Of a stretch of DNA of 64,000 nt, positions 256 through 64,000 are shown piece by piece. Origin of the DNA: an uncultured Spirochaetia bacterium (GTDB lineage: Bacteria > Desulfobacterota_D > UBA1144 > Nemesobacterales > CSP1-2); NCBI GenBank assembly GCA_964636885.1, contig CAZWVA010000003.1:11678-75677 (forward strand), given 5' to 3'. The notes under the pieces were generated by a model. That model saw only the letters and a program-made list of their open reading frames with translations, did not search any database and was not told where the DNA came from. The translations under genes were made by a program, and so were the position numbers. Numbering within the stretch: position 1 is the stretch's first letter; every line of letters starts with the position of its first letter.

Positions 256-1740
256 ATGAAACGGTTTTTGTCTTTTGCGGTTTTGATTCCCCTCCTTCTC
301 TCGATTACGCTGACGGCCTGTGAGAGGGTAGACGAGAAGAGGTTAGAGGAGAAGGGCAAAGAAAACGTAGAAACACCTAAAGGGAAAAACGAAGAGGCGG
401 AAGTAAGCAGGATCGAAGGGCTTCCATCCTTCGCCGGATTGGTCGATAAACTGAAACCGTCTGTTGTGAACATAAGCACGACGAGCGTACTCAGGCAGAG
501 GGGTTTTTTCTCTTTCAGATCCCCTTTTGGACAGGATGATCCGTTTGAGGAGTTCTTTAAAAGGTTTTTTGGCGGTGATGTCCCACAGCGGGAGTTTAGA
601 CAGCATGGCCTCGGCTCAGGGTTTATCATAAGCGAAGACGGATACGTGGTGACAAACAACCACGTGGTTGATAGGGCTCAGGACATTCAGGTAATCCTTG
701 AGGGCGGGGAAAAGTACGAGGCAAAGGTCATAGGTAAGGATCCCAAAACCGACCTTGCCCTTTTAAAGATCGAGCCCAAGGGAAAGCTTCCGGCTATAGT
801 CTTTGGGGACTCCGATAAGTTAAGGATTGGAGATTGGGTCATCGCAATAGGAAACCCCTTTGGACTCGGCCACACAGTAACGGCTGGTATAGTGAGTGCG
901 AAGGGGAGGGTTCTTGGCTTTGGCAACTATGATGACTTCATCCAAACGGACGCACCCATAAACCCTGGAAACAGCGGTGGCCCCCTTTTCAACCTCCAAG
1001 GGGAGGTGGTAGGGGTAAACACAGCAATAGTCGCCGGGGGACAGGGGATAGGGTTTGCGATACCTATAAACATGGCAAGGAACGTGGTAGAGCAGATCAA
1101 GGATAAGGGTAGGGTTGTTCGTGGTTGGCTCGGGGTTTTGGTACAGCAGGTTACGCCGGAGATCGCAGAGGGGATGAATCTCAAAGAACCGAGGGGTGCC
1201 CTCGTCTCTGATGTCACCCCTGGTGGGCCGGCGGAGAAGGCCGGAATTAAAAGAGGGGATGTTATAGTTGGAATCAACGGACACGAGGTTAAAAGCGTAT
1301 CTGATCTCACAAGCGCGGTTGCACTAACCCCACCCGGAACGCAGTCGAAGTTACATGTGATAAGAGAAGGAGAGGAAAAGGAGATTACTGTAACGATAGG
1401 TGAACTCCCCGAAAGTACAGGAGGACAGGCAGAAGAGAGGGCCCAGGGAGAGAGGGAGGAAAGACTGGGACTCTCGGCTGGCGAGATAACCCCGGAGATC
1501 GCAAGCCGCTTTAATCTCGGGGAGGAGAAAGGGGTCGTCATCACTGATGTTGCCCCTGGCAGTATAGCGGCTGAATCTGGTTTTAGGCCCGGGGACGTGG
1601 TACTGGAGATAAACAGACAGCCCATTAGAAACATGGACGATTATGAAAAGGGACTCGAGAAGATAGAAAAGGGAAAGTCGGCACTATTCCTTATAAAGAG
1701 GGGTAAGAACACCATATACCTGGGTTTAAGAATCGACTAA
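256..1740 (+). CDS. htrA: HtrA/DegP/DegQ-family periplasmic serine endoprotease (trypsin-like domain plus two PDZ domains)
   Basis: The ORF track frame 199..1740 has a GAGGAGG RBS at 246-251 preceding an internal ATG at 256 (MKRFLSFAVLIPLLLS...), which gives a signal peptide. The trypsin catalytic-triad context is present (TNNHVV; DLALLKI; GNSGGPL), followed by two PDZ-like segments. Confidence 0.9.
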   Translation: MKRFLSFAVLIPLLLSITLTACERVDEKRLEEKGKENVETPKGKNEEAEVSRIEGLPSFAGLVDKLKPSVVNISTTSVLRQRGFFSFRSPFGQDDPFEEFFKRFFGGDVPQREFRQHGLGSGFIISEDGYVVTNNHVVDRAQDIQVILEGGEKYEAKVIGKDPKTDLALLKIEPKGKLPAIVFGDSDKLRIGDWVIAIGNPFGLGHTVTAGIVSAKGRVLGFGNYDDFIQTDAPINPGNSGGPLFNLQGEVVGVNTAIVAGGQGIGFAIPINMARNVVEQIKDKGRVVRGWLGVLVQQVTPEIAEGMNLKEPRGALVSDVTPGGPAEKAGIKRGDVIVGINGHEVKSVSDLTSAVALTPPGTQSKLHVIREGEEKEITVTIGELPESTGGQAEERAQGEREERLGLSAGEITPEIASRFNLGEEKGVVITDVAPGSIAAESGFRPGDVVLEINRQPIRNMDDYEKGLEKIEKGKSALFLIKRGKNTIYLGLRID

Positions 1741-1767
1741 CCTTGGGATCTTCCTATAGGGGTTTTT

Positions 1768-2451
1768 CTATCTCCACTGCTCTTTTTCTATGTGCTTTAC
1801 CTTGATTAGAGAGGCGGCGTCTGTTCCAATCCTTAGGGATTTTCCTCTGACCTTAAGAATGAATGAGCCTCCAAAGGGTTCCTTCTTTTGTACGGTGAAT
1901 GGGGTGTCAGGGATGAGGCCGAGATCATCGAGATACTGAAGGAGTTTCGGGTCCTCGTCCGGAACCTCAGACACTATACCGCTTTCCCCTTCTTTCATTT
2001 CGGATAGACAGATCAGTTCTTCATCCCTAAGCACAAGCTCGGGGCTGGGTATAGGGGAGCCATGCGGGTCGCGGGTAGGGTGATTCAGGAGCTCTGCCAT
2101 TCTCTTCTCCACCTCCTCGGATATAACGTGTTCCCATTTCTCGGCCTCATCGTGAACCTTGTCCCAGGGGAGTCCGAGTGCCTCGTGGAGGTACTGTTCT
2201 ATGAGGCGGTGATGCCTTATTACCTCGAGTGCTATCTTCTCTCCGGCCGGCGTTAGGACGGCGCCCCTATAGGGCTCGTGCTCTACCAGTTGGAGATCGA
2301 CAAGCCTTTTAACCATCTGCGTTACCGTGGGCGGGGATACCTTCATTATCTTGGCAAGATCGTTTGTATTGGCTTTTCCCTTTTTCCTAAGGAGGTTAAA
2401 GATCGTTTTTAAGTAATCTTCCATAACGGAGGAGAGTTGTGTTCGCACCAT
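1768..2451 (-). CDS. DtxR/IdeR-family metal-dependent transcriptional repressor with a C-terminal SH3-like/FeoA domain
   Basis: The MEDYLKTIF...TNDLAKIMKVSPPTVTQMVKRL segment matches the DtxR-family HTH. The metal-binding and dimerisation core and a C-terminal FeoA-like tail are present. The likely start is the ATG at 2451 with a GAGGT RBS; the track start at 2466 is a TTG. It lies adjacent to the mntH-like transporter. Confidence 0.8.
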   Translation of the reverse strand: MVRTQLSSVMEDYLKTIFNLLRKKGKANTNDLAKIMKVSPPTVTQMVKRLVDLQLVEHEPYRGAVLTPAGEKIALEVIRHHRLIEQYLHEALGLPWDKVHDEAEKWEHVISEEVEKRMAELLNHPTRDPHGSPIPSPELVLRDEELICLSEMKEGESGIVSEVPDEDPKLLQYLDDLGLIPDTPFTVQKKEPFGGSFILKVRGKSLRIGTDAASLIKVKHIEKEQWR

Positions 2452-2528
2452 CAAATTATACCTCAACGGGGGATCAAACTGTATACCCTTTCACTGTATT
2501 ATGCTCCCTCCTAGGCGGTCATTACCTT

Positions 2529-4436
2529 TCATTTTAGGGGCACAACAAGGACACTGGCCCGAACCCTGTGTCTTACCCTCTCTACGGTCGTGCCGTGTAG
2601 GATATCGGAGACCCCCGAGTGACCGTGGCCTCCTAGAATCACGAGGTCTATATCGAGCTCATTTATCATTCGAGCAAGCTCCGTAGCCGGGTTTCCGGTT
2701 CCCAATCGCCACTCGGCGTCGATACCTATCCTGCGGAGTTCAAGTGTGAGCTCTTCCAGCCGTTCCTTATCGCTTAGTGTCTCTCGATCGGCGGCCTCTT
2801 TCCCCATAACGAGTGCGGCGGGGCTTTCAACTACATGCAGGAGAACCACCTTGGCTCCGCTATCTTGTGCTATACGCCTTGCCTCTGCCAGAAGCTTCAT
2901 CACTCCATCCGAGAAATCGAGGGCCACGGCCACACGCCTGTATGGCCGCGGTGCCGGTAGCACCGCCTTATGGGTCGGTACAGGACCGTAAACCACTGCC
3001 CGTGGCATCCTGAGTTTCTTTATCCATGGGCGGAGGGTTATGTATACGAGCAGAAACCCGACGACTATGATTAGGGGTAAAACTATCATCCGAACCATCC
3101 AGGCCTTCTCCCCTGCGCTTAGGAGCCACCCTCCGACCTCGCCTATAACCAGTTTTACGTTGAGGGAAACGATTATGGATGTTGCTATCCAGGCGACTAC
3201 ACGGAGCCAGGGTGGGATGACGAATCCCCCCATACGGCGCTCATCGGATACGAAGTGTATGAGAGGGATAATGGCAAAGGGGAGCTGTAATGAAAGAACC
3301 ACCTGGCTCAGCACCAGTAGAGAACCTGTGGAGTTTTCGCCAAAATACCAGATCCCGATTACTGCTGGGAGTACGGCAAACATTCGCGTTATCAACCTGC
3401 GGATCCAGGGGCGGATTCGGAGGTTAAGGTATCCCTCCATGACGACCTGACCGGCCAGGGTTCCAGTAATAGTAGAGCTCTGCCCTGAGGCAAGAAGGGC
3501 GACTGCAAAGGCAAAGGGTGCTATGGATGCCCCGAGAAGCGGTTCGAGTAGACGATATGCGTCCTCGATCTCCGCCACGTTATAGTGACCGCTTCTATAG
3601 AAGACCGCGGCCGCCATGATTAGAATGGCCGAGTTTACAAAGAAGGCGGCGTTAAGTGCGAGGGCGGAGTCGATCGTATTCCATCTAATCGCCTGTCTTA
3701 TCTCCTTAGGGTCGTGTCCGACCTGGCGTGTCTGAACGAGGGAGGAGTGCAGGTAGAGGTTATGAGGCATCACCGTAGCCCCAAGAATACCCATGGCGAT
3801 ATAAAGTGCATCTCTACCCGGCAGTGAGGGAACGAATCCGCGTGCAATCCCTCCCCAATCGGGCTTGGCTAGTAGGATCTCTATAAGGAGACCCGCGCCA
3901 ATAGTGGCCACCAACGATAGGATCACGGCCTCTAGCTTCCTGATGCCAAACCGAGAGAGGGATAGGAGTAGGAGTACATCCAGGGTCGTTAGCAACACCC
4001 CGTATAGGAGCGGTAGACCGAAGAGCAGCTTTAGTGCAATGGCGGAACCGAGAACCTCCGCAAGGTCACATGCTATGATGGCGATTTCGGCGAGTACATA
4101 GAGAGGGATATTTATAAGACCTGGATACTCTTCACGGTTTGCCTGTGCTAGATCGCGACGGGCAACGACGCCAAGACGGGCCGAGAGGCTCTGGAGAAGA
4201 ACCGCCATCAGGTTGGACATGAGGAGCACCCATATGAGTTTATAGTTGTATCGGCTTCCTCCAGCCAGATCGGTAGCCCAGTTGCCGGGGTCCATGTATC
4301 CCACAGAGACCATGAGGGCTGGTCCGCTAAAGGTAAGCCAATGCCGCCACCAACTCGACCCGCCACTCGGTAGGGGTACCGACTCATTAACCTCCGCTAA
4401 GGATCTCTGTTGATAATGGGAAGGATCGGGTTTCAT
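2529..4436 (-). CDS. mntH: NRAMP-family Mn2+/Fe2+:H+ symporter (MntH) fused to a C-terminal universal stress protein (UspA) domain
   Basis: The N-terminal about 440 aa are multi-TM with the NRAMP signature region GYMDPGNWATDLAGGS. The C-terminal about 150 aa (VAVALDFSDG...LVILGGHGHSG...VLVVP) is a Usp fold. Confidence 0.85.
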   Translation of the reverse strand: MKPDPSHYQQRSLAEVNESVPLPSGGSSWWRHWLTFSGPALMVSVGYMDPGNWATDLAGGSRYNYKLIWVLLMSNLMAVLLQSLSARLGVVARRDLAQANREEYPGLINIPLYVLAEIAIIACDLAEVLGSAIALKLLFGLPLLYGVLLTTLDVLLLLSLSRFGIRKLEAVILSLVATIGAGLLIEILLAKPDWGGIARGFVPSLPGRDALYIAMGILGATVMPHNLYLHSSLVQTRQVGHDPKEIRQAIRWNTIDSALALNAAFFVNSAILIMAAAVFYRSGHYNVAEIEDAYRLLEPLLGASIAPFAFAVALLASGQSSTITGTLAGQVVMEGYLNLRIRPWIRRLITRMFAVLPAVIGIWYFGENSTGSLLVLSQVVLSLQLPFAIIPLIHFVSDERRMGGFVIPPWLRVVAWIATSIIVSLNVKLVIGEVGGWLLSAGEKAWMVRMIVLPLIIVVGFLLVYITLRPWIKKLRMPRAVVYGPVPTHKAVLPAPRPYRRVAVALDFSDGVMKLLAEARRIAQDSGAKVVLLHVVESPAALVMGKEAADRETLSDKERLEELTLELRRIGIDAEWRLGTGNPATELARMINELDIDLVILGGHGHSGVSDILHGTTVERVRHRVRASVLVVPLK

Positions 4437-4472
4437 AACGGTCTCTCTTGTTTAAATTCGCTAAAATTAAAA

Positions 4473-4486
4473 TTAGGTACTCCTAA
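4473..4486. promoter_or_regulatory. Inverted repeat TTAGG-N4-CCTAA, a candidate DtxR/MntR-type operator upstream of mntH
   Basis: TTAGGtactCCTAA lies about 35-50 nt upstream of the mntH start on the other strand. It resembles the half-sites of the DtxR-family consensus (TTAGGTTAGCCTAACCTAA) and sits in the divergent mntH/egtB intergenic region. Confidence 0.3.
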
Positions 4487-4766
4487 AATATATTCTTTAA
4501 ACGCCGTCTGTCAAATGAAATGCGTGGTCTAGAAATGGGATCTCTCATAAGACCGGTATTGGGGTACTGTTTCTCACTAAGCACTGCCTTCCTTACCTGT
4601 CATTGCGGACGAAACGATCCCTTTTTGGACGGATTTCATCCGTATTTTTATAAAACCCTTTTTGATAGAATCACGTATATTGTTATACTCTGATCTTAGA
4701 CATAGTTATAGGATAGCCTTTAGCAAAAAGCGTCGTTAGCCAAATCTATTTTAGAAAGGGAGGGTT

Positions 4767-6086
4767 ATGAATATGTCAGATAGAACAATGATCCCCAGGC
4801 AGGTCAAAGAAAAAGATCGAAGTGAATTAATCAGCCGTTCTCTCCTTAAAGACTACAGGTCGGTCCGCGGGTTTAGCGAGGATCTCTGCAGACCGCTTGT
4901 AACCGAGGATTACGTCATCCAGTCCATGCCAGATGTGAGCCCGACAAAATGGCACCTAGCCCATACGAGTTGGTTTTTTGAAACGTTTGTCCTCGAACAC
5001 GTAGACCCTGGGTATAGGCCTCTGGATCCCAGGTATAAGTACCTTTTTAATTCCTACTACGTTCAGGTTGGGGCAAGGCACGCCCGTCCACAGCGCGGGC
5101 TCCTATCGAGGCCCACGGTAGAGGAGGTCTATCTATATAGGCACCGTGTGGACGAGCACATGATCGGGTTTCTTGAAAGCGCCGACGAGTCGGAGGTAGA
5201 GAGGATCGCCCCTGTTATAGAGATAGGAATCCATCATGAACAACAGCACCAGGAACTCATGGTCACGGATATAAAGCACGTTTTTTCTGTGAACCCGCTC
5301 CGTCCGGTGTATATCACAAAACATGAAAACCCAAAATCCCGTTCCATACCTGGTATCAGATGGATTGTCTTCCCAGAGGGGGTGTATCTCATAGGGCACG
5401 AGGGGGAGGGTTTTGCCTATGATAACGAGTGCCCACGCCACAGGGAATTTGTGGGGGCTTTCCTTATAGCCTCACGTCTTGTGACCAATCGCGAGTATCT
5501 GGCTTTCATGGAAGACGGGGGTTATGAGAGGCCTGAGCTCTGGCTATCGGACGGCTGGTATGCGGTTGAGGCAAACGGCTGGAAGGCTCCCCTTTACTGG
5601 GAAGGGATCGACGGGGCCTGGTGGTACTTTACCCTTTCTGGCATGCGCGAGGTAGATCTGGACGAGCCCGTATGTCACGTAAGCTACTACGAGGCGGACG
5701 CCTACGCCCGCTGGGCTGGGGCGAGGCTCCCAACAGAAGCCGAATGGGAGATCGCCGCATCTAAACCATCTATAGAGGGAAACTTCATTGAAGATGGGAG
5801 GCACCATCCCGTGCCTTTAAGCGATGAGGGGGCCAGTGGTGACCTACTTCAGATGTTTGGGGATGTGTGGGAGTGGACGAGTAGTCCCTACACCCCGTAT
5901 CCGGGTTTTAAAACGCTCCCCGGAGCGCTTGGGGAATACAACGGAAAATTCATGTCCAATCAGATGGTGCTCCGCGGAGGCTCCTGTGCGACGCCTAGAT
6001 CCCATATAAGAAGGACCTATAGAAACTTCTTCCCTCCCAGTGCCAGGTGGCAGTTTATGGGGATAAGGCTTGCGAAAGATGCATGA
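4767..6086 (+). CDS. egtB: Ergothioneine biosynthesis sulfoxide synthase EgtB (DinB_2 domain plus FGE-sulfatase-like domain)
   Basis: The N-terminal DinB-like four-helix metal-binding region (HLAHTSWFFE...HHEQQHQEL) and the C-terminal FGE-sulfatase fold (VSYYEADAYARWAG...RGGS) match the characteristic EgtB architecture. An AGGGAGGG RBS precedes the ATG. Confidence 0.8.
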   Translation: MNMSDRTMIPRQVKEKDRSELISRSLLKDYRSVRGFSEDLCRPLVTEDYVIQSMPDVSPTKWHLAHTSWFFETFVLEHVDPGYRPLDPRYKYLFNSYYVQVGARHARPQRGLLSRPTVEEVYLYRHRVDEHMIGFLESADESEVERIAPVIEIGIHHEQQHQELMVTDIKHVFSVNPLRPVYITKHENPKSRSIPGIRWIVFPEGVYLIGHEGEGFAYDNECPRHREFVGAFLIASRLVTNREYLAFMEDGGYERPELWLSDGWYAVEANGWKAPLYWEGIDGAWWYFTLSGMREVDLDEPVCHVSYYEADAYARWAGARLPTEAEWEIAASKPSIEGNFIEDGRHHPVPLSDEGASGDLLQMFGDVWEWTSSPYTPYPGFKTLPGALGEYNGKFMSNQMVLRGGSCATPRSHIRRTYRNFFPPSARWQFMGIRLAKDA

Positions 6087-7041
6087 GAACATAAAGGCGG
6101 TAAAGGGATTCGAGGCCGAGTGGGATTACCTCATTGCCGAGGTGATGGAGGGGCTTAGAAAACCCCAAAAGGAACTCCCCTGCAAGCTCTTTTACGACGA
6201 GAGGGGCTCGCTTCTATTCGATGAGATATGCGGGCTTAAGGAGTACTACCTCACGAGAACGGAGATGGCCATCATGGATAAGTATATCTCCGAGATCTCA
6301 GATACACTCGGCAGCGGGTGTCTACTTATAGAGCTTGGAAGCGGTAGCAGTAAAAAGATAAGGCTGATACTGGATCATCTGGAAGAGCCTGCAGGATATA
6401 TGCCGATTGATATCTCGTTTAAGCACCTGATGAAGTCTGTGTCCGCACTTGCAAGGGACTATCCCCGACTCAGGATAGTCCCGGTATACGCCGATTACAC
6501 TCAACCCTTTTCCCTACCCCGCTTTTACATTCCCTACTCCCGGAAGGTCGTATATTTCCCTGGCTCGACTATAGGGAATTTTACGCGAGAATACGCGGGC
6601 CTTTTTCTCGAACGGATCGCTAGATTGACTGGTGGTGGAAGCGGGCTTCTAATAGGGGTCGATCTTAAAAAGGATAAAAGGACACTTGAGGCTGCTTATA
6701 ACGATGGTAAAGGGGTTACGGCCGCGTTTAATCTAAACATGCTTGAGAGGCTAAACCGTGAACTGGGTGCGGATTTCGATCTCAGTAGGTGGAGGCATCA
6801 CGCTTTCTATAATGACGGTGTGGGAAGGATAGAGATGCACCTTGTGAGTCTCGAAGATCAATACGTGCATATAGGTGACGGTGGGGTTTTCTTCGAGAAG
6901 GGAGAGACCATACTTACCGAGTATTCCTACAAGTACACGTTGGAGGAGTTTCGGGAACTGGTTTCCGACGCATTTCGGATTGAACGCGTCTGGACGGATG
7001 AGAAGCGTAGATTCAGCGTGCAGTACCTTTCCGTTCGTTGA
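6079..7041 (+). CDS. egtD: L-histidine N-alpha-methyltransferase EgtD
   Basis: The motifs LFYDERGSLLFDEICGLKEYYLTRTE and ELGSGSSKK (SAM-binding) are EgtD hallmarks. The ATG at 6079 overlaps the egtB stop (ATGCATGA), and the track start at 6070 is a TTG. It forms a two-gene egtBD unit. Confidence 0.8.
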   Translation: MHENIKAVKGFEAEWDYLIAEVMEGLRKPQKELPCKLFYDERGSLLFDEICGLKEYYLTRTEMAIMDKYISEISDTLGSGCLLIELGSGSSKKIRLILDHLEEPAGYMPIDISFKHLMKSVSALARDYPRLRIVPVYADYTQPFSLPRFYIPYSRKVVYFPGSTIGNFTREYAGLFLERIARLTGGGSGLLIGVDLKKDKRTLEAAYNDGKGVTAAFNLNMLERLNRELGADFDLSRWRHHAFYNDGVGRIEMHLVSLEDQYVHIGDGGVFFEKGETILTEYSYKYTLEEFRELVSDAFRIERVWTDEKRRFSVQYLSVR

Positions 7042-7346
7042 CAAGGGGTAAGGACCGTTGCCCACCCGGACGATTCCATAACGCCGTATTTTTGCCTCTC
7101 GTGCAGGTTTTTTCACCAGATGGGATACTTTGCCTAGGGGTGAGGATTGGAGAGGGTGTAGAGATTCACTATGGATTTAATAAAGGGAAAATACCTTCCG
7201 GGATCGTGACGTGTCACCTAGGGTTTTCTCAGGGAATATCGAAATAGAGAAGAAAGGTTGGCTAGACGGTTAATCTATTGTCCGGTTTTAGGGGTTAGAG
7301 TGTGCTTTTCTTTATCTCTAACTTATTTTAAAATTAGAAAACATAT

Positions 7347-8702
7347 ATGTCCGATACCGATATAAGAACCAAATTAAAAAGCGAACCAGATATATTTCTT
7401 AGACTGACCGAAAACTCTATGCTGGTTGCTGCAAGTTTAAGAGACAAATTTCTAGATCAGACGCTAGATATAGCAAGTAAGATAAGAAAAAGATTGGGGA
7501 TAGGAAGTCTTAAAGGTTTTGGAATTAAGAAAGTATCTCCAGATTATAAGACCGACTCTAGTAAAATAACAGTGGCTTTTATTGACGGTGGTATTGGTGA
7601 AGCAGAAATTTTCCTAAAAGTTCCTCTAATTGTAAGAGGAGGTATTTTCAAAATAAAAGAGGGCGAGAGAGACTTAGAGAAACGCGAGATCTTTGAGTTT
7701 TTTCCAATACTAATTGGTGATTTGGAAGGAGGTGAAAAGGGAAGCGGCGACTATGCATCGGTTGTGAGAATAATTATTGAGTTATCAGCTATTTTAAAAG
7801 TTCTTGATGATCCCAAATATTCAGACGTGAACTTAATAATGCTTCATGGACCTATTCTTTACAGACTATCAGCTTATTCAAGGCATTGGTTTTTTGAAAA
7901 CGATATACTTACTATGACTCAAGGCTCAAAATATTTAATCAACGACTTTAGAGAAAACATCAAAGAATGTCAGTTAGAAGAATGCGTATGTAGTTCTTGG
8001 AAGAGTGAGCAAAAGTTAGTTGCAAACTGCTTTATCGCATTTTTGTTGAATCAGATTATAGATAAATGTCTTAAAAAGTATATAGATTTTGTAGGAGTTG
8101 TAGAGAGACCTGACGCAACAGAGATAGGAACAATTCTTTTTGAGCATCTTCTTAAGGAAGAACCTGATTTAGCTAAAAACTATTTGGGTAGAACAGTAAA
8201 GAATTATAAAAATGATGCAAAAGAAATAATTAGGATCGGAAATTATAATGATCCATTGTTGTTCTCGATAATTTTAAGTCCTGGCGAATACTTAGATTTT
8301 TATGAAGCAGAAGAACGATATAGTGGGTTTGTTGGGAAATTTCAAGGGTTTGACCGTAAATTACCGAAAATATCCTATACCTATTTAAAGCCGGTAGAGA
8401 ATGCAATGGCAATAAGAGTTGAATTTCCGCAAAAACTCACTGATTCAAGAAAAGAAGCGGGTTTATATAAAACTTATGAATACTCTAGGTTGCTACCTAA
8501 CTATGCATTCCCGATAGGGCTTGACGTAGCTGATAAGTTTGCAAAAGTTCCTAAATGGATGGTTGAAGCTTATCGTAAATATATTCTTTTTAATTTTGGC
8601 AGATTAACTTTAGATAAGGAATTAGAAGAGCATGAATTACGTAAAATTTTAATGTTCTTCTATTTGCATAGAAGAGATTTTCAATCTAGACCTAAGATTT
8701 AG
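7347..8702 (+). CDS. nurA: NurA-family 5'-3' nuclease (RNase H-like fold)
   Basis: The N-terminal motif KITVAFIDGGIGEAE matches the NurA signature FVAIDGGSFG. The C-terminal YAFPIGLDVADKFAKV matches the NurA YPFPLLKAHMDVRF motif. It lies immediately upstream of HerA with a 2-nt gap. Confidence 0.7.
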   Translation: MSDTDIRTKLKSEPDIFLRLTENSMLVAASLRDKFLDQTLDIASKIRKRLGIGSLKGFGIKKVSPDYKTDSSKITVAFIDGGIGEAEIFLKVPLIVRGGIFKIKEGERDLEKREIFEFFPILIGDLEGGEKGSGDYASVVRIIIELSAILKVLDDPKYSDVNLIMLHGPILYRLSAYSRHWFFENDILTMTQGSKYLINDFRENIKECQLEECVCSSWKSEQKLVANCFIAFLLNQIIDKCLKKYIDFVGVVERPDATEIGTILFEHLLKEEPDLAKNYLGRTVKNYKNDAKEIIRIGNYNDPLLFSIILSPGEYLDFYEAEERYSGFVGKFQGFDRKLPKISYTYLKPVENAMAIRVEFPQKLTDSRKEAGLYKTYEYSRLLPNYAFPIGLDVADKFAKVPKWMVEAYRKYILFNFGRLTLDKELEEHELRKILMFFYLHRRDFQSRPKI

Positions 8703-8704
8703 GA

Positions 8705-10444
8705 GTGGAAAGTATGGGGAATAGTAAAAATATAATTGGTACTGTGGTGGGTGTTACAAATCCTAGGGAATTTTATTTTTCTATAGCTCCTGGAAAGGCT
8801 CAACTTCAGGAAATTGTTGCTGTTGATGCCTATGAATTAGATGAATCTGGAGAGAAAAAAGATAAGACAGTAAGAGTTTGGGCTAAGGTCGTCGAAATAG
8901 AGCGAATAAATCCGCTTTTTCCACAAGAAGTTGCTCAGGAACTCTCTTTTCAGCAAATGAGTGCTTTTGACACTGTTATTCCTCTTTCAAGAGAGATGAT
9001 AACAGCAAAGTGTGCTGTCCTCGGGTTAGAAAATAAAAAGGGAGAACTTCAACCTTTAACATACCCTCTTCAACCTGCATCTAGTGTATATATTCCGTCT
9101 AAAAAGGACGTAGAAAAATTAGTTATAGGAGACATCCCTGATTATAGAAAACTTCATATAGGGCATCTGCGCTCTAAGCCGGAGTTTAAGGTTTTCATAG
9201 ATGGACATGCCATAGTAGCAAGGCACTTAGCTGTTCTTGCCGCAACAGGGGCTGGTAAGACAGTTACAGTTAGACGAATTATTGAGGAACTATCGAGTCG
9301 AAAATACCCTATTCTAATATTTGATCCGCATGGAGATTATATTGGGTTAAAAGAATTACCAGAACTTAAAGGAAGTGTAGAGGTTTATCTTCCAGTATTT
9401 CGTGTATTGGAGGAGTCCTTTGACAACCTCATCCTTTTATTATCTGGCCTTTCTAGTGAAGATATAACTCCACCTCAAGAAACATTAATAGGTGGTTTAT
9501 TAGACTTATTTAATACCAAAGAAGGAAGAGAATTTATAGATAATTACATAAGACCTATAAGTGAATCTAGGAGAACTGAATATAGACTGAATATAGAGTC
9601 TCATCATTTTTATGCGATGAACGAAGTATTGGATATATTAGAAAGGCTTCAAACTGAGGAAAGTTGGGAAGAAGTGAGGAATGAATTAAATACTATTTCT
9701 AGAAGACTTGTAAGAGGAATGTCTACATCCATTAGACCTGTAAGCCGTATATTATCTAGGGCTGCTCTATCTTATTCGCAGATTAAAAAAATTAATAGAT
9801 TTAAGCGAGACTTCGGAGTAGAGCTACCTAGTCCTCAAGATATAAGTTCACTAATATCTCCTGGAAAGATAAGCATAATAAACCTAGAGGGATATAGTAA
9901 CCTAAGTAGCGTTGTGGCTAGCAATATACTAAGGCAACTTCTTAATTTAAGAGTCGAAGAAAAAGTACACCGTTTTTTAACTGTTATTGAGGAAGCACAT
10001 AATTTTATTCCTAGTTCGATTGAGAGTGCAGTGCAAAGTAGCGCTATATCAGTGATAAGACAGATTGCAACTGAAGGACGGAAATACGGTATGGGACTTA
10101 TTTTGATAAGCCAACGTCCATCTAGAGTGGATTCAACAATTGTTTCGCAATGCAATTCTTTTATAGTCTTAAAGATTATCAATCCTGGTGATCAGAAGTA
10201 TGTTAGGGATGTTGTTGAATCAATTGGTGAAGAAGATGCTAAGATTCTTCCAGATTTAGCTACCGGAGAAGCATTAATAACAGGGGAATGCGTTAGGTTT
10301 CCTATGTTGGCTAGAATCGAGAGACCTAGATCGGTTGGTAGGCACGAAGAAGAAGATTTTATAAAAGAAATACTTGATAAGGAAAGTAACGTTGTTTCTC
10401 AAAAATCTAAGACTAAGGAGTTGCCCCTTTTGAAAAAGCAATGA
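8705..10444 (+). CDS. herA: HerA-family (DUF87, FtsK/HerA superfamily) hexameric DNA translocase/helicase ATPase
   Basis: An N-terminal HAS-barrel-like region is followed by a Walker A (LAATGAGKTVTV), a Walker B (LTVIEEAHNF) and the QRPS segment typical of HerA. It is paired with NurA. Confidence 0.8.
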   Translation: MESMGNSKNIIGTVVGVTNPREFYFSIAPGKAQLQEIVAVDAYELDESGEKKDKTVRVWAKVVEIERINPLFPQEVAQELSFQQMSAFDTVIPLSREMITAKCAVLGLENKKGELQPLTYPLQPASSVYIPSKKDVEKLVIGDIPDYRKLHIGHLRSKPEFKVFIDGHAIVARHLAVLAATGAGKTVTVRRIIEELSSRKYPILIFDPHGDYIGLKELPELKGSVEVYLPVFRVLEESFDNLILLLSGLSSEDITPPQETLIGGLLDLFNTKEGREFIDNYIRPISESRRTEYRLNIESHHFYAMNEVLDILERLQTEESWEEVRNELNTISRRLVRGMSTSIRPVSRILSRAALSYSQIKKINRFKRDFGVELPSPQDISSLISPGKISIINLEGYSNLSSVVASNILRQLLNLRVEEKVHRFLTVIEEAHNFIPSSIESAVQSSAISVIRQIATEGRKYGMGLILISQRPSRVDSTIVSQCNSFIVLKIINPGDQKYVRDVVESIGEEDAKILPDLATGEALITGECVRFPMLARIERPRSVGRHEEEDFIKEILDKESNVVSQKSKTKELPLLKKQ

Positions 10445-11721
10445 AATATTTCATTCCCGACTGGGAAGACCGTTTAGACCCAAATTATGATTTTCAAACA
10501 GACACGTTTGGAAGAGAAAGGAATGAAGCCTATAAAACTGATATTTACGCACATCAAATTTTTTCTAAGCCCCCGTATGATGGGATATTAATCAGCCTAG
10601 CCCTTTTTAATAGTAGAAGTAAAATTACTTTAAAAGAGAGTAAGAATGGAGATAAAAATATAAGGGAACTGAGAACGATCAAAGATTATCTAAAAATTCC
10701 CGCTTCGAGCAATCTAGAGGTGATGGGAGATTGTGGGGCATTTAGCTATATTAATGAAGATACCCCTCCTGCTGAGTATGATACAAAATTGGTTGCTGAT
10801 GTTTACCATAATCTGGGTTTTGATTATGGTGTTTCAGTGGATCACATGATTCCTGATTTTATCTTGAAGGAAGATAGGAAAGGAAGAAAAAAGAAAATAA
10901 AGCTTACCAAGCAGCAAAAGGAAAAACGTAGACAACTAACCCTAGACAATGCTGAAGAGTTTTTGCGATATCATAGAGAGAGAAATTATGATTTTATTCC
11001 TATTGGTGTGGCGCAAGGATCGGATCCAATATTCTATGCTGATTCTGTGTACAATCTATTGGAGATGGGATACAGATACATAGGGTTAGGAAGTTTAGTC
11101 CCTAAGAGAGACGATGAAATCGTAGACATACTCAAAGCTGTAAAAAGAGTTATAGACCGGCATTCTAAAGAAGAGAATATAAGAATCCATCTTTTTGGAG
11201 TATTGCGGATTAAAAAGCTAGTCGAGTTTAGGTCATTAGGGGTAACCAGTTTTGATAGTGCTTCCTACCTCAGGAAAGCATGGCTACGCTCGGACCAAAA
11301 CTACCTTGCTCCAGATAAAAATTGGTTTTCAGCAATTAGGATTCCTTACTCTAATAATCCACGCCTTGTCAAAAATGCAAAGGAAGACGGTATCTCGGAA
11401 AGAGAACTAAAACAAAGAGAAGAGGAATGTTTAAAGTTGATAAGAGAATACGCTCAAAAACCAAAAAATTCAAACCTAGAAAGAGTATTAGACGCCATAA
11501 TGAACTATGATTCCTTGCTTCTTCGAGGCTTTGAGGGTAACCATCATCGGGAGAAGTATATGGCTACACTCTTGGCTAGACCCTGGGAGAAATGTAATTG
11601 CGAGGTCTGCAAATCTCTTGGTGTAGATGTTGTGATATTTCGTGGTGCGAATCGAAATAAAAGAAGAGGATTCCACAATACTAAAATCTTTTATGACCTC
11701 TACCTTAACTCAGAAGAATAA
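10441..11721 (+). CDS. tRNA-guanine-transglycosylase-fold protein, DpdA-like (predicted nucleobase-exchange enzyme, possibly acting on DNA)
   Basis: TGT catalytic-site equivalents are present: MGDCGAFSY (cf. TDSGGFQ), GVAQGS (cf. GIVQGG), YIGLGSL (cf. YAIGGL) and SFDSASYLR (cf. MFDCVLPTR, the nucleophile Asp). A C-terminal CxCxxC...H zinc site (CNCEVC...H) is present and there is no PUA domain. The ATGA overlaps the herA stop. Confidence 0.7.
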   Translation: MKYFIPDWEDRLDPNYDFQTDTFGRERNEAYKTDIYAHQIFSKPPYDGILISLALFNSRSKITLKESKNGDKNIRELRTIKDYLKIPASSNLEVMGDCGAFSYINEDTPPAEYDTKLVADVYHNLGFDYGVSVDHMIPDFILKEDRKGRKKKIKLTKQQKEKRRQLTLDNAEEFLRYHRERNYDFIPIGVAQGSDPIFYADSVYNLLEMGYRYIGLGSLVPKRDDEIVDILKAVKRVIDRHSKEENIRIHLFGVLRIKKLVEFRSLGVTSFDSASYLRKAWLRSDQNYLAPDKNWFSAIRIPYSNNPRLVKNAKEDGISERELKQREEECLKLIREYAQKPKNSNLERVLDAIMNYDSLLLRGFEGNHHREKYMATLLARPWEKCNCEVCKSLGVDVVIFRGANRNKRRGFHNTKIFYDLYLNSEE

Positions 11722-12169
11722 GATTCTAATCATTGTTCCCTGCGGAAAAAAGAAAATCTGGGATAAAATCCCAAATAAAGGTAGAGTTTATGCCAAAGAC
11801 GCATATATAAGCCCTTACTTTAAACTCTGTCGGAAGTATGCAGAAAAATTCGCTGATAAGTGGGTGATCCTTTCGGCAAAGTATGGGTTTATTGAACCAG
11901 ATTTTACTATTCCAAAAAATTATGACGTTTCATTTAACAACTCTAAAAATGAGGTTGTATCTTTTCAAAGACTCAAAGTTCAGGTAAAGAAGTTAAGATT
12001 TCAAGATTATCAATCGGTTATTATTTTAGGTGGAAAAGAATATATCGATATAGTTCAAAGGGTATTGAAAGGTTCCAGGAGACGAATAAAAGTCCCGCTT
12101 GAGGGTCTAGGAATTGGAAAAAGACAAGCCAAGATTAAAGAGGCACTGACCAAAAGGATTTCTTTCTGA
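11693..12169 (+). CDS. Small Rossmann-like hypothetical protein (158 aa) with an N-terminal ILIIVPCGKKK motif
   Basis: The ATG at 11693 is in frame with ORF 11642..12169 and overlaps the end of the TGT-like gene by about 29 nt. A β-strand-Gly/Lys loop pattern occurs twice (IVPCGKKK; VIILGGKEY). No family is recognised by eye. Confidence 0.45.
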   Translation: MTSTLTQKNKILIIVPCGKKKIWDKIPNKGRVYAKDAYISPYFKLCRKYAEKFADKWVILSAKYGFIEPDFTIPKNYDVSFNNSKNEVVSFQRLKVQVKKLRFQDYQSVIILGGKEYIDIVQRVLKGSRRRIKVPLEGLGIGKRQAKIKEALTKRISF

Positions 12170-12273
12170 CGGAGTATAGAAGTGGGATGGGAAATCCTAT
12201 ACGAGCTTCTAAGAGAAGGATTAAGATGATATCATACTGTCAACGGAGGTTGGAAGGTCGACAGGTTTATGGT

Positions 12274-13197
12274 TCACGACCCTCGTTTACCCTTTCCGAG
12301 TAGGTGTCTTAAAGCCCCTATGAGCTCAGGATACAGAAACCCATAATCGGTATCCAGCAGCTTCTTTGGAATAGCCCGGCAACTCGCAAGGAGCATTTCC
12401 TCGGCCATCTCTCCTATAAGAAGGCGAAGGACAAACCCGGGGATCGAAAGGAAAGACGGACGCCCAAGTACTCGTGAAAGCGTCCTTGTAAACTCACGGT
12501 TTGTAACCGGATTGGGCGATACCGCGTTTACGGGTCCATTGAGATCTTTTTTATTGATGGCATGATAAATAGCACCTACTACATCGTCAATAGAGATCCA
12601 GCTAATATACTGGTTTCCGCTTCCAATAGTCGCTCCTAATCCCAAGCGGAAGGGGGTAAGCATGGCCTTTAAGACCCCGCCTTTTGGACTTAGGACGAGG
12701 CCGATCCTAAGGTTGACGACACGGATCCCTTTCTCTATAGCGGGTTTACACGCCCCCTCCCACTCACGGCATACATCCGCTAGGAATCCCCTACCGGACC
12801 CGCTTTCCTCTGTTAGTATCTCGTCTCCACGATCGCCGTAATAACCTGTTGCCGATGCGCACACAAACACATCTGGTGGCTCCTTGAGTGTGGCTAGGGA
12901 TCTTGAGAGGAGCCACGTCCCATCGACTCGGCTCTTACGGATCCTCCTCTTTTTCTCTTCAGTCCATATTCCGGCCACGTTTTCCCCTGCGAGGTGCACA
13001 ACGGCGTTATGCCCCTCGAAAACCGAAGGGTCGATCTCTTTGGCATCGGGATTCCAGTAAGAAACCGACTCTCCGATCTTAGCCTCGGAGAAAGACCTCG
13101 AGCGGGTAAGACGAGTGACACTATGGCCGTTTGTGGTAAGAAATGGAACCAGAGCCGACCCTATGAGTCCTGTGGATCCGGTAACCAGGATTTTCAT
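12274..13197 (-). CDS. NAD-dependent epimerase/dehydratase-family protein (YfcH-like, DUF1731 C-terminus)
   Basis: N-terminal Rossmann motif ILVTGSTGLIGSAL and overall YfcH/TIGR01777-like architecture. Confidence 0.75.
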   Translation of the reverse strand: MKILVTGSTGLIGSALVPFLTTNGHSVTRLTRSRSFSEAKIGESVSYWNPDAKEIDPSVFEGHNAVVHLAGENVAGIWTEEKKRRIRKSRVDGTWLLSRSLATLKEPPDVFVCASATGYYGDRGDEILTEESGSGRGFLADVCREWEGACKPAIEKGIRVVNLRIGLVLSPKGGVLKAMLTPFRLGLGATIGSGNQYISWISIDDVVGAIYHAINKKDLNGPVNAVSPNPVTNREFTRTLSRVLGRPSFLSIPGFVLRLLIGEMAEEMLLASCRAIPKKLLDTDYGFLYPELIGALRHLLGKGKRGS

Positions 13198-63018: not shown

Positions 63019-63405
63019 ATGATTGGACCTCCTTAATGTTGATCTATACCGTTTAAATGGTTTTTCCTTATTAGACGTTTAGTTACTACTCATTTTGATA
63101 AAAAATCCATAAAAATGGATTCATGAAACCCTCGGATACCATCCTGTAATCAATGCGTTATAACCATTTGTTCTTTATAGAAAAAGAGGGTACGGTTACC
63201 AACTATCTAAAGACCTTATTAAGCACCTAAATCCCGTTGGTTGAACCTCCTTTAAATCCGGCTAAATCTGCGTCTAAGGATCCGTCCTCGCACCATCCAC
63301 TAGCATATCTACGAAACTCGTATTAATATATGCTGTACAATTGATTCTATCAAGTAGATACTTTTTTGTGATATAGTATCTCAAAAGAAACCACGGGGGA
63401 GAAAG

Positions 63406-63753
63406 ATGAGAAGCAAGAAATACACCTGTCCGGTAGAAGCAACGTTAGATGTGATCGGTGGTAAGTGGAAGGTACTGATCTTACATCACATAAAAGAAGA
63501 GGGGATAATCCGTTTCAGTGAGTTGAAAAGGCTGATTCCGGGAATAACACAGAAGATGTTGACAAAACAGCTAAGGGAACTGGAAGCGGATGGCCTGATA
63601 AATAGAAAAGTATATCCGCAGATACCCCCAAAGGTAGAATACTCACTTACCGAATACGGAAGGAGCCTTGAACCCGCATTAAAACTACTTTGCAACTGGG
63701 GAACAAAACACATGAGCCGTATTGAAGCAAAGCTGAGAAAGAAAGTCGGTTAG
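63406..63753 (+). CDS. HxlR-family transcriptional regulator
   Basis: CPVEATLDVIGGKWKVLIL...FSEL...GITQKMLTKQLRELE is the HxlR winged-helix signature. It is divergent from the efflux operon. Confidence 0.85.
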   Translation: MRSKKYTCPVEATLDVIGGKWKVLILHHIKEEGIIRFSELKRLIPGITQKMLTKQLRELEADGLINRKVYPQIPPKVEYSLTEYGRSLEPALKLLCNWGTKHMSRIEAKLRKKVG

Positions 63754-63845
63754 AACGTCTTAAGGCCGTATACCTATGTTCTAAAGCAGAAACCGAAATC
63801 CTAAAGTACAATAGGATTATACGCTAGAGGAGACCGCAATCAAAT

Positions 63846-63995: not shown

Positions 63996-64000
63996 AGTAG

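What the first reader, a model, noticed from the sequence alone, without database searches (positions are those of the whole stretch)
7250..12250. Sharp compositional island (about 35% GC in a roughly 50% GC chromosome) without mobility genes
The four-gene cassette differs markedly from its flanks in GC content and codon usage. It is wedged between egtD and a housekeeping epimerase on the opposite strand. No integrase, transposase, tRNA or obvious flanking direct repeats are visible, so the acquisition is either old or mediated in trans. A compact accessory cargo of this kind is typical of defence islands.
Basis: seen in the sequence. Interest (0 to 1): 0.55.

Follow-up and report, generated by a model that had tools for sequence, protein, structure and literature searches.

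The report
Compact DpdA–HerA–NurA DNA-modification island
The low-GC island is a foreign four-gene operon that most likely swaps guanines in the cell's own DNA for 7-deazaguanine bases and pairs this mark with a motor-plus-nuclease that would destroy unmarked DNA; this compact version of the Dpd defence system does not appear in any paper I could search.

Summary
Window 7250-12250 has 35.8% GC against 48.4% for the rest. No 5-kb window outside the island falls below 45.6%. Third-codon-position GC (GC3) is 0.24-0.33 in the island genes against 0.535±0.032 elsewhere. No tRNA, integrase or flanking repeat was found.

The cargo is one tightly packed operon:
- a NurA-fold nuclease (7347-8702)
- a HerA ATPase (8714-10444)
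- the DNA-guanine transglycosylase DpdA with an intact active site (10441-11721)
- a DUF6884 protein (11693-12169), a small relative of DpdC and of the ArcS catalytic core

The same four-gene unit recurs in unrelated bacteria and archaea. In relatives the HerA-NurA pair is usually replaced by a UvrD helicase plus a PD-(D/E)XK nuclease, DpdA and DUF6884 are often fused, and preQ0 synthesis or salvage genes often lie next door.

My best reading is a horizontally acquired, minimal Dpd-like 7-deazaguanine restriction-modification module. It lacks DpdB and DpdD-K, so it is not a canonical Dpd system. Function is inferred from homology and context, not shown. No empty site was found in relatives. 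I rate it a new variant of a known kind, of moderately high interest.

The parts
7250..12250 (.). Low-GC compositional island (35.8% GC in a 48.4% GC background)
   Evidence: more than 6 sd below all other 5-kb windows; GC3 0.24-0.33 against 0.535.
7042..7346 (+). Left border and presumed promoter region: a 305-nt spacer between the egtD stop and the first island gene. GC drops at about 7240-7290.
   Evidence: No repeat, tRNA or Rfam match. The promoter consensus scan found no more sites than in shuffled sequence.
7347..8702 (+). NurA-family nuclease, 451 aa, RNase H-like fold
   Evidence: Pfam NurA covers 75-401 at E 4e-4, 20.4 bits against a cut-off of 21. Of the 91 homologues listed, many carry PF09376 and some are named NurA by NCBI. 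The AF2 model has pLDDT 87.7. Foldseek top hits are S. solfataricus NurA 2YGK (E 2e-10), T. kodakarensis HerA-NurA 9X1N_G, P. furiosus NurA 3TAZ/3TAI and TdpB 8WFD_G. Invariant acidic and His residues are D80 (FIDGG), E114, E145, H167, E253, D302, E359 and D396.
8714..10444 (+). HerA-family hexameric ATPase/translocase, 576 aa. It starts 11 nt after the NurA stop.
   Evidence: Pfam DUF87/HerA central domain 1e-29 and HerA_C 1e-10. PADLOC HerA PDLC04105 2e-57. PDB sequence hits to HerA of HerA-NurA complexes 9X1L (2e-39) and 4D2I, and to TdpA 8WET. Walker A GAGKT at 179-183 and Walker B-like VIEEAH at 424-429.
10441..11721 (+). DpdA, DNA-guanine transglycosylase (7-deazaguanine inserting), 426 aa. 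Its start overlaps the HerA stop by 4 nt.
   Evidence: NCBIfam NF041059 DpdA, 422 bits against a cut-off of 200, E 2e-126. PADLOC DpdA 4e-118. A profile of the clade matches S. Montevideo DpdA 7UI4 over its full length at E 4e-110. Catalytic and substrate residues map as D95>D97, F99>F101, D130>D134, D256>D272, with Zn ligands C385/C387/C390/H412; His181 is replaced by Gln192.
11693..12169 (+). DUF6884 protein, 158 aa, a small relative of DpdC/YaaA and of the ArcS catalytic core. Its start overlaps the DpdA 3' end by 29 nt.
   Evidence: Pfam PF21818 6e-24. PADLOC PDC-M57A 2e-20 and weak DpdC hits at 3e-4. Family motifs PCGKKK (PC-X3-K, 16-21) and LSAKYG (60-65) are present (the motifs are defined in PMC11701544). 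The AF2 model has pLDDT 91. Top PDB folds are AF0587 2Q07 and E. coli YaaA 5CAJ. Of 39 DpdA-linked homologues, 35 also match PF03883 (the DpdC family) and 23 match PF17884 (the ArcS core). It is fused to the C-terminus of DpdA in P0011, P0016, P0061, P0062, P0087, P0097 and P0109.
12170..12273 (.). Right border: a 104-nt convergent spacer between the DUF6884 stop and the stop of the - strand epimerase-family gene
   Evidence: Nucleotide homology with the nearest cassette relative, L084, ends at 12165.
4767..7041 (+). Host flank: egtB (4767-6086) and egtD (6070-7041), ergothioneine synthesis
   Evidence: Pfam FGE-sulfatase + DinB_2 and Methyltransf_33. The egtB-egtD pair is conserved in most of the 80 loci checked, none of which carries the cassette.
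12274..13197 (-). Host flank: TIGR01777/DUF1731 NAD-dependent epimerase-family gene
   Evidence: Pfam Epimerase + DUF1731. Homologues at 79% identity or less lie in unrelated contexts.

Best explanation
The island is a horizontally acquired, self-contained four-gene operon encoding a minimal Dpd-like 7-deazaguanine DNA restriction-modification module. Proposed mechanism: (1) the host supplies free preQ0 by synthesis or salvage (inferred; no que genes lie in this window). (2) DpdA exchanges selected guanines in double-stranded DNA for preQ0, using Asp272 as nucleophile and Asp97 as general acid/base (inferred by homology with S. Montevideo DpdA). (3) The DUF6884 protein, a small relative of DpdC and of the ArcS catalytic core, acts on the nitrile of DNA-embedded preQ0 to give dADG or dG+ (inferred; which product is open). 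(4) The HerA hexameric motor loads DNA into the NurA nuclease, which degrades DNA that lacks the mark. This pair would take the place of DpdD-K, and the motor possibly also provides the ATP-driven DNA opening that DpdB gives canonical DpdA (inferred from context and from the TdpAB precedent). Shown here: the composition anomaly; the identity and intact motifs of the four proteins; and the conservation of the four-gene unit with an interchangeable motor-nuclease pair and frequent preQ0 genes nearby.
For: Foreign origin: GC and GC3 are extreme outliers. Cassette relatives lie in 31-40% GC contigs in unrelated contexts. The cassette is absent from 80 egtBD loci. Operon: gaps and overlaps between the genes are 11, -4 and -29 nt. 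DpdA: NF041059 at 422 bits against 200; 7UI4 at 4e-110 with catalytic Asp residues and the Zn site conserved. DUF6884 and its link to preQ0-nitrile enzymes: 35 of 39 homologues hit the DpdC family PF03883 and 23 of 39 hit the ArcS core PF17884; the YaaA fold is a top structural hit; Rosetta-stone DpdA-DUF6884 fusions exist; a phage ArcS-core protein plus DpdA2 makes dG+ in DNA (PMC10516641); DpdC converts dPreQ0-DNA to dADG (PMC10164549). Module conservation: of 26 non-redundant DpdA loci with enough flank, 24 have DUF6884 and all 26 have a motor. Five have HerA plus a NurA-like gene, 22 have UvrD plus PD-(D/E)XK, and 1 has both. 7-deazaguanine supply genes lie next to relatives: FolE2-QueE-QueC-QueD beside NurA-HerA-UvrD-PDDEXK-DUF6884-DpdA in L185; a Vut_1/YhhQ transporter in 16 of 81 loci; QueC/D/E in L090, L102, L113, L146, L148 and L173-175. 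Defence context in relatives: toxin-antitoxin pairs, an SNF2 helicase, type II R-M and HNH genes. PADLOC defence models are hit. A HerA-like/NurA-like pair is coupled to a DNA modification gene in the Tdp system, and the NurA model matches TdpB.
Against: There is no experimental evidence for modification or restriction by this or any related cassette. No preQ0 synthesis or salvage gene lies in the 64-kb window, and no preQ1 riboswitch, so substrate supply is unknown. DpdB, which S. Montevideo DpdA needs in vitro, is absent. HerA-NurA pairs are best known as DNA-end resection (repair) enzymes, and in Thermodesulfovibrio (L088) the cassette sits next to Mre11/Rad50-like genes. The NurA Pfam score is just under the gathering cut-off (20.4 against 21). 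No empty site was found, so the insertion event is inferred from composition and distribution only. The window's own DUF6884 protein matches the DpdC and ArcS models only weakly or indirectly.
Confidence: 0.6

Rival explanations
1. A modification-only (epigenetic or protective) module. DpdA and DUF6884 mark the DNA. The motor (HerA, or UvrD in relatives) only replaces DpdB as the ATPase that opens DNA for base exchange. The nuclease nicks or processes DNA for the exchange rather than restricting foreign DNA.
For: Canonical DpdA needs ATP hydrolysis by DpdB (PMC10164549), and no DpdB is present here. A motor is present in all 26 complete loci, as expected for an obligatory cofactor.
Against: A dedicated nuclease always accompanies the motor, in two unrelated folds (NurA-like or PD-(D/E)XK). 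That pattern fits an effector better than a cofactor. Phage DpdA enzymes insert preQ0 without such partners. Relatives sit among toxin-antitoxin and R-M genes.
Confidence: 0.15
2. A DNA-repair or damage-tolerance module. HerA-NurA resects DNA ends as in archaeal double-strand-break repair, while the transglycosylase and the YaaA-like protein replace or process damaged guanines.
For: NurA and HerA are named and structurally matched to double-strand-break repair enzymes. Mre11/Rad50-like genes follow the cassette in L088. YaaA is linked to peroxide stress, and the DUF6884 member YfjM binds DNA lesions (PMC11701544). Many carriers are thermophiles.
Against: The distribution is sporadic and here the cassette sits in a foreign-composition island. 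preQ0 synthesis and salvage genes are repeatedly adjacent, which points to 7-deazaguanine insertion rather than damage removal. The DpdA active site matches a preQ0-inserting enzyme. The HerA-NurA pair is freely exchanged for UvrD-PD-(D/E)XK.
Confidence: 0.15
3. A HerA-based abortive-infection or DNA-capture defence, like Sir2-HerA or DUF4297-HerA. In this reading HerA-NurA is the autonomous effector and DpdA/DUF6884 serve another role, for example altering tRNA or acting as sensors.
For: The HerA protein hits many PADLOC and NCBIfam anti-phage HerA models. PDB hits include defence HerA complexes.
Against: All those scores are far below the equivalog cut-offs (145 against 850 bits). DpdA and DUF6884 are the constant parts of the module while the motor-nuclease pair is the exchangeable part, which is the opposite of what a HerA-centred system predicts.
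Confidence: 0.07
4. Not an acquisition at all: native genes whose low GC reflects gene-specific constraints.
For: No mobility gene, repeat or empty site was found.
Against: GC3 is 0.24-0.33 against a minimum of 0.46 in 47 other genes. Homologous cassettes occur in unrelated lineages and contexts with matching low GC. The cassette is absent from all other egtBD loci.
Confidence: 0.03

Closest known systems
Dpd restriction-modification system (dpdA-K of Salmonella enterica serovar Montevideo and other bacteria)
   Same: It has a bDpdA-type DNA-guanine transglycosylase with a full-length match to 7UI4 and conserved catalytic Asp residues and Zn site. It has a second protein related to DpdC. It lies in a horizontally acquired island. 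Relatives are linked to preQ0 genes.
   Different: It has no DpdB (ParB/DGQHR ATPase) and no DpdD-K. The whole system is about 5 kb and 4 genes, against about 20 kb. The DpdC counterpart is a 158-aa DUF6884 protein rather than DUF328. The presumed restriction part is HerA-NurA, or UvrD-PD-(D/E)XK in relatives. DpdA His181 is Gln here. Canonical clusters seen on plasmids have DndB-like DpdB, a DEAD helicase, a PLD nuclease and DpdJ.
TdpABC phosphorothioate system of thermophiles (An et al., Nat Chem Biol 2025, as cited in PMC12914056)
   Same: A HerA-like ATPase (TdpA) and a NurA-like nuclease (TdpB) are coupled to a DNA-modification gene. The NurA model hits TdpB 8WFD_G and the HerA hits TdpA 8WET.
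   Different: The modification chemistry is backbone phosphorothioation by TdpC, not base exchange. There is no TGT-family or DUF6884 protein. Sequence similarity to TdpA and TdpB is low.
Archaeal/bacterial NurA-HerA DNA end-resection complex
   Same: It has adjacent nurA-herA genes, a NurA fold and a HerA ATPase with Walker motifs.
   Different: The window has no Mre11/Rad50 partners. The pair is embedded in an operon with DpdA and DUF6884, sits in a foreign-composition island, and is exchangeable with UvrD-PD-(D/E)XK in relatives.
Phage DpdA2 + ArcS2 pair (Vibrio phage nt-1), which makes dG+ in DNA
   Same: A DNA transglycosylase is paired with a small stand-alone domain carrying a PC-X3-K motif that acts on DNA-embedded preQ0 (PMC10516641). 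23 of 39 DpdA-linked DUF6884 proteins hit the ArcS-core model PF17884.
   Different: The phage pair protects phage DNA and has no motor or nuclease. The DpdA subfamily differs (bDpdA-like here). The window's own DUF6884 protein does not itself reach the PF17884 model.
BREX-related capture (BRC) system with HerA/FtsK and TGT (PMC12839542)
   Same: It combines a HerA-type translocase with a TGT-family enzyme and lacks DpdB and DpdC.
   Different: BRC has seven components built around PglZ, a BrxC-like ATPase, a STAND NTPase, DUF4007 and GNAT. None of these is present here, and BRC has no NurA or DUF6884.

Membership tests
Canonical Dpd system | DpdA DNA-guanine transglycosylase | tested here: met
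   NF041059 at 422 bits (cut-off 200). 7UI4 at E 4e-110 over the full length. D97, D134, D272 and the Zn site are conserved.
Canonical Dpd system | DpdB (ParB/DGQHR-type ATPase) next to dpdA (92% of dpdA genomes per PMC5699537) | tested here: not met
   All four island genes are assigned to other families. No DpdB hit appears in the PADLOC, NCBIfam or Pfam scans.
Canonical Dpd system | DpdC (DUF328/PF03883) converting dPreQ0 to dADG | tested here: inconclusive
   The window protein is DUF6884 (PF21818). It gives only weak PADLOC DpdC hits (3e-4, residues 47-107). Family members hit PF03883 in 35 of 39 cases, and YaaA is a top fold hit.
Canonical Dpd system | DpdD-DpdK restriction genes | tested here: not met
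   None is in the island.
Canonical Dpd system | dPreQ0/dADG present in genomic DNA | not testable with these tools
   This needs LC-MS/MS of DNA nucleosides.
NurA-HerA nuclease-ATPase pair | HerA (DUF87) ATPase with Walker A and B motifs | tested here: met
   PF01935 at 1e-29. GAGKT at 179 and VIEEAH at 424-429. PDB HerA hits.
NurA-HerA nuclease-ATPase pair | NurA RNase H-like nuclease encoded next to herA | tested here: met
   Foldseek hits to 2YGK (2e-10), 9X1N_G and 3TAZ. The Pfam NurA score of 20.4 bits is just under the cut-off of 21, but homologues pass it. The gap to herA is 11 nt.
NurA-HerA nuclease-ATPase pair | Operon partners Mre11 and Rad50 (archaeal repair operon) | tested here: not met
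   They are absent from the island and its flanks. They are present only next to the L088 relative.
DUF6884 (PF21818) | CxxxK and LSAxxG motifs on the YaaA-like 'cantaloupe' fold (PMC11701544) | tested here: met
   PCGKKK at 16-21 and LSAKYG at 60-65. PF21818 at 6e-24. Fold hits to 5CAJ YaaA and to phage DUF6884 proteins.
Horizontally acquired genomic island | Composition and codon use deviating from the host | tested here: met
Horizontally acquired genomic island | Integrase or transposase, tRNA target, flanking direct repeats | tested here: not met
Horizontally acquired genomic island | Empty site in close relatives | tested here: inconclusive
   The only syntenic relative (98% nucleotide identity) also has the island. 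More distant relatives have no synteny.
PADLOC candidate system PDC-M57 | Match to the PDC-M57A model | tested here: met
   E 1.9e-20. The other components of that candidate system are not known to me and no paper mentions it.
TdpABC system | TdpC phosphorothioation enzyme | tested here: not met
   No such gene is present. Only the HerA/NurA-like pair resembles TdpAB.

The most novel reading that the evidence does not exclude
The cassette is one instance of a widespread family of minimal 7-deazaguanine restriction-modification systems in bacteria and archaea that no paper I could search describes. A constant marking pair (DpdA plus a DUF6884 enzyme of the DpdC/ArcS-core type, often fused) works without DpdB. 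It is coupled to one of two interchangeable motor-nuclease effectors (HerA-NurA or UvrD-PD-(D/E)XK) that destroy unmarked DNA. This would also give DUF6884 its first function: chemistry on the nitrile of DNA-embedded preQ0.
Probability: 0.45. Interest if true: 0.75.

Novelty: new variant of a known kind. Interest (0 to 1): 0.6.

Why it matters
The known Dpd system is described as the largest and most complex restriction-modification system found so far (about 20 kb, 11 genes), and the reason for that complexity is not understood (PMC10164549). A four-gene version would help on several fronts:
- It would define the minimal parts needed for 7-deazaguanine self-marking and restriction.
- It would show that DpdA can work without DpdB.
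- It would assign a role to the uncharacterised DUF6884 family.
- It would add a second example, after Tdp, of a HerA-NurA pair used as a modification-sensitive restriction effector.

The unit is small enough to clone and test directly in E. coli.

Tried and rejected
1. Empty-site test. egtD relatives in 185,579 species genomes gave 80 loci, none with the epimerase-family gene, CLC channel, ffh or the cassette nearby. Epimerase homologues at 79% identity lie in unrelated contexts. The 97%-identical one (L091) has the island. The test therefore remains open.
2. Border signatures. No flanking direct or inverted repeats, no tRNA and no Rfam family, including preQ1 riboswitches. Promoter and terminator consensus matches were no more frequent than in shuffled sequence.
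3. Sequence-level PDB searches for the NurA-like protein and for DUF6884 found nothing meaningful. Structure prediction plus fold search was needed.
4. I asked whether the 611-627-aa proteins that take the NurA position in some relatives are NurA homologues. The evidence is only a weak Pfam hit (E 0.006) and an hhalign probability of 28%, so this is unresolved.
5. An iterated HMM for DUF6884 drifted into DpdA through the fusion proteins. I redid it with stand-alone sequences only.
6. Literature. No paper links DpdA to NurA, HerA or UvrD in a four-gene unit, and none mentions PDC-M57. Subscription-only papers were not searchable.
7. Viruses. Only 2 viral contigs and 1 phage record carry this DpdA clade, so a phage origin is not supported.
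8. Technical failures. The look-up for P0034 found nothing, the afdb50 library was unavailable, and two calls failed on wrong coordinates.

Full report
**1. Observation**

The sliding-window profile shows GC falling from about 0.49 to 0.31-0.39 between about 7250 and 12250, then returning to about 0.49-0.52. Over the stated coordinates GC is 0.358, against 0.484 for the rest of the window. Five-kb windows outside the island average 0.482 (sd 0.018, minimum 0.456), and the five lowest 5-kb windows all start at 7001-7401.

Codon use agrees. GC3 of the four island genes is 0.27, 0.24, 0.33 and 0.32, against 0.535 ± 0.032 (minimum 0.463) for the 47 other ORFs. The island genes also sit at the bottom of a CAI-like index trained on the rest of the window.

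The island holds four + strand genes. They lie between egtB/egtD (4767-7041) and a - strand TIGR01777/DUF1731 epimerase-family gene (12274-13197), followed by a CLC channel and ffh. The only tRNA in the window is at 52478. Repeat searches across the borders gave only short chance-level matches, and no Rfam family matches.

**2. What the four genes are**

- **7347-8702 (451 aa): a NurA-family nuclease.**
  - The Pfam NurA match spans residues 75-401 but scores 20.4 bits, just under the cut-off of 21.
  - Many of the 91 homologues in the large protein collection pass the Pfam model, and some are named NurA by NCBI.
  - An AlphaFold2 model built on 41 sequences (pLDDT 87.7) finds NurA structures as its best solved matches: 2YGK (E 2e-10), the NurA chain of the T. 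kodakarensis HerA-NurA complex, P. furiosus NurA, and TdpB.
  - Acidic and His residues D80, E114, E145, H167, E253, D302, E359 and D396 are invariant across the family.
- **8714-10444 (576 aa): HerA.**
  - It matches the DUF87 central domain (1e-29), PADLOC HerA (2e-57), and solved HerA chains from HerA-NurA and defence complexes.
  - Walker A is GAGKT at 179 and the Walker B-like motif is VIEEAH at 424-429.
- **10441-11721 (426 aa): DpdA.**
  - It scores 422 bits against NCBIfam NF041059, whose cut-off is 200.
  - A profile of its clade aligns end to end with the crystallised S. Montevideo DNA-guanine transglycosylase 7UI4 (E 4e-110).
  - I mapped the residues that Gedara et al. showed or proposed to be catalytic (PMC10164549). 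The general acid/base Asp95 corresponds to D97, Phe99 to F101, Asp130 to D134, and the nucleophile Asp256 to D272.
  - The CxCxxC...H zinc site is C385/C387/C390/H412.
  - His181 is Gln192 throughout this clade.
- **11693-12169 (158 aa): a DUF6884 protein.**
  - It matches PF21818 at 6e-24 and PADLOC candidate PDC-M57A at 2e-20.
  - It carries both motifs of the family, PC-X3-K (PCGKKK) and LSAxxG (PMC11701544).

The genes are packed with an 11-nt gap, a 4-nt overlap and a 29-nt overlap. They therefore form one operon.

**3. What DUF6884 is related to**

The Pfam authors describe DUF6884 as a distant relative of YaaA/DUF328, and DpdC is a DUF328 protein.

- The window protein gives weak PADLOC DpdC hits (3e-4).
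- Its model (pLDDT 91) has AF0587 (2Q07) and E. coli YaaA (5CAJ) as its two best solved folds, and phage DUF6884/YaaA proteins in BFVD.
- Of 39 DUF6884 proteins encoded next to DpdA genes, 35 also match PF03883 (best 2e-8) and 23 match PF17884/DUF5591 (best 3e-6).
- PF17884 is the catalytic core of archaeosine synthase, with motif PC-X3-KPY. A phage stand-alone copy (ArcS2), co-expressed with DpdA2, produces dG+ in DNA (PMC10516641).
- DpdC converts dPreQ0-DNA to dADG-DNA.

DUF6884 therefore sits between two enzyme families that both attack the nitrile of nucleic-acid-embedded preQ0. In several homologues DUF6884 is fused to the C-terminus of DpdA, in the same order as the two overlapping genes here.

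**4. The cassette elsewhere**

*The host.* The window comes from a metagenome-assembled contig (JGI 3300036768, 184,655 bp). The same locus is seen in two other assemblies. Host flank proteins are closest to Dadabacteria and Thermodesulfobacteriota MAGs.

*Direct look-ups of homologues.*

| Locus | Source and similarity | Gene order | Neighbours |
|---|---|---|---|
| L084/L085 | DpdA 84% identical | NurA-HerA-DpdA-DUF6884 | MNT/HepT toxin-antitoxin pair |
| L107 | DpdA 54% identical | same order as the window | not examined |
| L086 | not identified | DUF6884-(611-627 aa protein)-HerA-DpdA | toxin-antitoxin pairs and an SNF2 helicase |
| L088 | Thermodesulfovibrio | DUF6884-(611-627 aa protein)-HerA-DpdA | Mre11/Rad50-like genes |
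| L182 | Nitrosotenuis (archaeon) | DUF6884-(611-627 aa protein)-HerA-DpdA | nothing notable |
| L179 | Methanothermococcus (archaeon) | DUF6884-UvrD-PD-(D/E)XK-DpdA | nothing notable |

*Survey of loci.* I examined 89 loci from metagenomes, viruses and look-ups with my own ORF calls and HMMs. This gave 81 non-redundant DpdA loci. Of the 26 with at least 4 kb upstream and 3 kb downstream:
- 24 have DUF6884, and 12 of those are fused to DpdA.
- All 26 have a motor gene. Five have HerA with a NurA-like gene, 22 have a UvrD helicase with a PD-(D/E)XK nuclease, and one has both.

The constant part is thus DpdA plus DUF6884. The variable part is one of two motor-nuclease pairs.

*Links to 7-deazaguanine supply.*
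- A Vut_1/YhhQ-type transporter lies nearby in 16 of 81 loci.
- QueC, QueD or QueE lie nearby in eight loci.
- In L185, whose NurA is the closest long-contig homologue (61% identity), a FolE2-QueE-QueC-QueD operon lies divergently next to NurA-HerA-UvrD-PD-(D/E)XK-DUF6884-DpdA. A type II methyltransferase/HinfI pair follows it and an HNH gene lies nearby.

*Origin.* Relatives of the cassette lie in contigs of 31-40% GC, which matches the island rather than its 48% GC host. Only two viral contigs and one phage record carry this DpdA clade. Plasmid-borne DpdA genes (42% identity or less) belong to canonical clusters with DndB-like DpdB, a DEAD helicase, a PLD nuclease or DpdJ.

**5. Acquisition**

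- None of the 80 nearest egtD loci (75% identity or less) has the epimerase-family gene, CLC channel, ffh or the cassette nearby.
- Epimerase homologues at 79% identity lie in different neighbourhoods.
- The one syntenic relative (98% nucleotide identity) already has the island, with the same low GC.

Horizontal acquisition therefore rests on composition, on the patchy distribution of the cassette, and on its presence as a unit in unrelated contexts. The lack of amelioration argues against an old event. How it was inserted is unknown.

**6. Mechanism**

The best-supported reading is a minimal Dpd-like restriction-modification module.
1. DpdA inserts preQ0 into DNA.
2. DUF6884 converts the nitrile to an amide (dADG) or an amidine (dG+).
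3. HerA feeds DNA to NurA, which degrades DNA lacking the mark.

A HerA-like/NurA-like pair coupled to a DNA-modification gene has a precedent in the Tdp phosphorothioate system, and the NurA model matches TdpB. The motor may in addition replace DpdB as the ATPase needed for base exchange.

None of these steps is shown experimentally for this family. Substrate supply in this host is unknown, since no que genes lie in the window. Three rivals remain open: a modification-only system in which motor and nuclease are cofactors, a repair module, and a HerA-centred abortive-infection system. I weight them at 0.15, 0.15 and 0.07.

**7. Comparison and novelty**

The cassette is not a member of the canonical Dpd system, because DpdB and DpdD-K are absent and the DpdC counterpart belongs to a different, related family. 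It works like a Dpd system in its marking half and like Tdp in its presumed restriction half.

The searchable literature has no description of a DpdA/DUF6884/motor/nuclease unit. The nearest is the seven-gene BRC system, which combines HerA and TGT with BREX-like parts. PADLOC lists DUF6884 as defence candidate PDC-M57A, and NCBI already names the transglycosylase DpdA, so the parts are not unknown. What appears to be new is the architecture and its breadth across bacteria and archaea. I classify it as a new variant of a known kind, with interest 0.6.

Noticed in passing
L100/L101 (about 300-9230) and L185 (9001-17472): Some relatives carry both motor-nuclease pairs in one operon: HerA with a NurA or NurA-like gene, and UvrD with PD-(D/E)XK, together with DUF6884 and DpdA. 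These could be intermediates of module exchange or two-effector systems.
   Followed up: partly
L088 8672-11828 (Thermodesulfovibrio MAG): Mre11-like (Metallophos, 379 aa) and Rad50-like (SMC_N, 675 aa) genes directly follow the DUF6884-HerA-DpdA cassette. This recalls the archaeal herA-mre11-rad50-nurA repair operon.
   Followed up: no
L086 2465-4300, L088 3646-5529, L100 734-2599, L102 2330-4165, L182 1724-3559: A conserved 611-627-aa protein (74-75% identical across phyla) takes the NurA position upstream of HerA. It has FVAIDGTCS and GVVKDS motifs but only a weak NurA match (Pfam E 0.006; hhalign probability 28%). Its fold and role are unresolved.
   Followed up: partly
window 10441-11721, residue 192: Throughout this DpdA clade the base-contacting His181 of S. 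Montevideo DpdA is an invariant Gln. To my recollection canonical tRNA TGTs also have Gln here. This might change which 7-deazaguanine is accepted.
   Followed up: no
window 63001-64000: The last kilobase of the window drops to 39.8% GC. It holds an HxlR-type regulator gene (63406-63753) and non-coding sequence downstream of an RND efflux operon (HlyD 61789-63018, AcrB 58389-61811). The window ends here, so I cannot tell whether a second island begins.
   Followed up: no
window 47705-49258: A 517-aa ORF with host-like GC3 (0.53) has no Pfam match at E 1e-4.
   Followed up: no
window 2529-4436 and 17841-19139: Two fused housekeeping proteins: MntH/Nramp joined to a C-terminal universal stress protein domain (635 aa), and TrmD joined to a Methyltrn_RNA_4 domain (432 aa), according to the precomputed Pfam hits for the same contig.
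   Followed up: no
window 4251-5000: A smaller GC dip (0.44) lies in the mntH-egtB intergenic region. It lies mostly in non-coding sequence (the mntH-egtB spacer).
   Followed up: no
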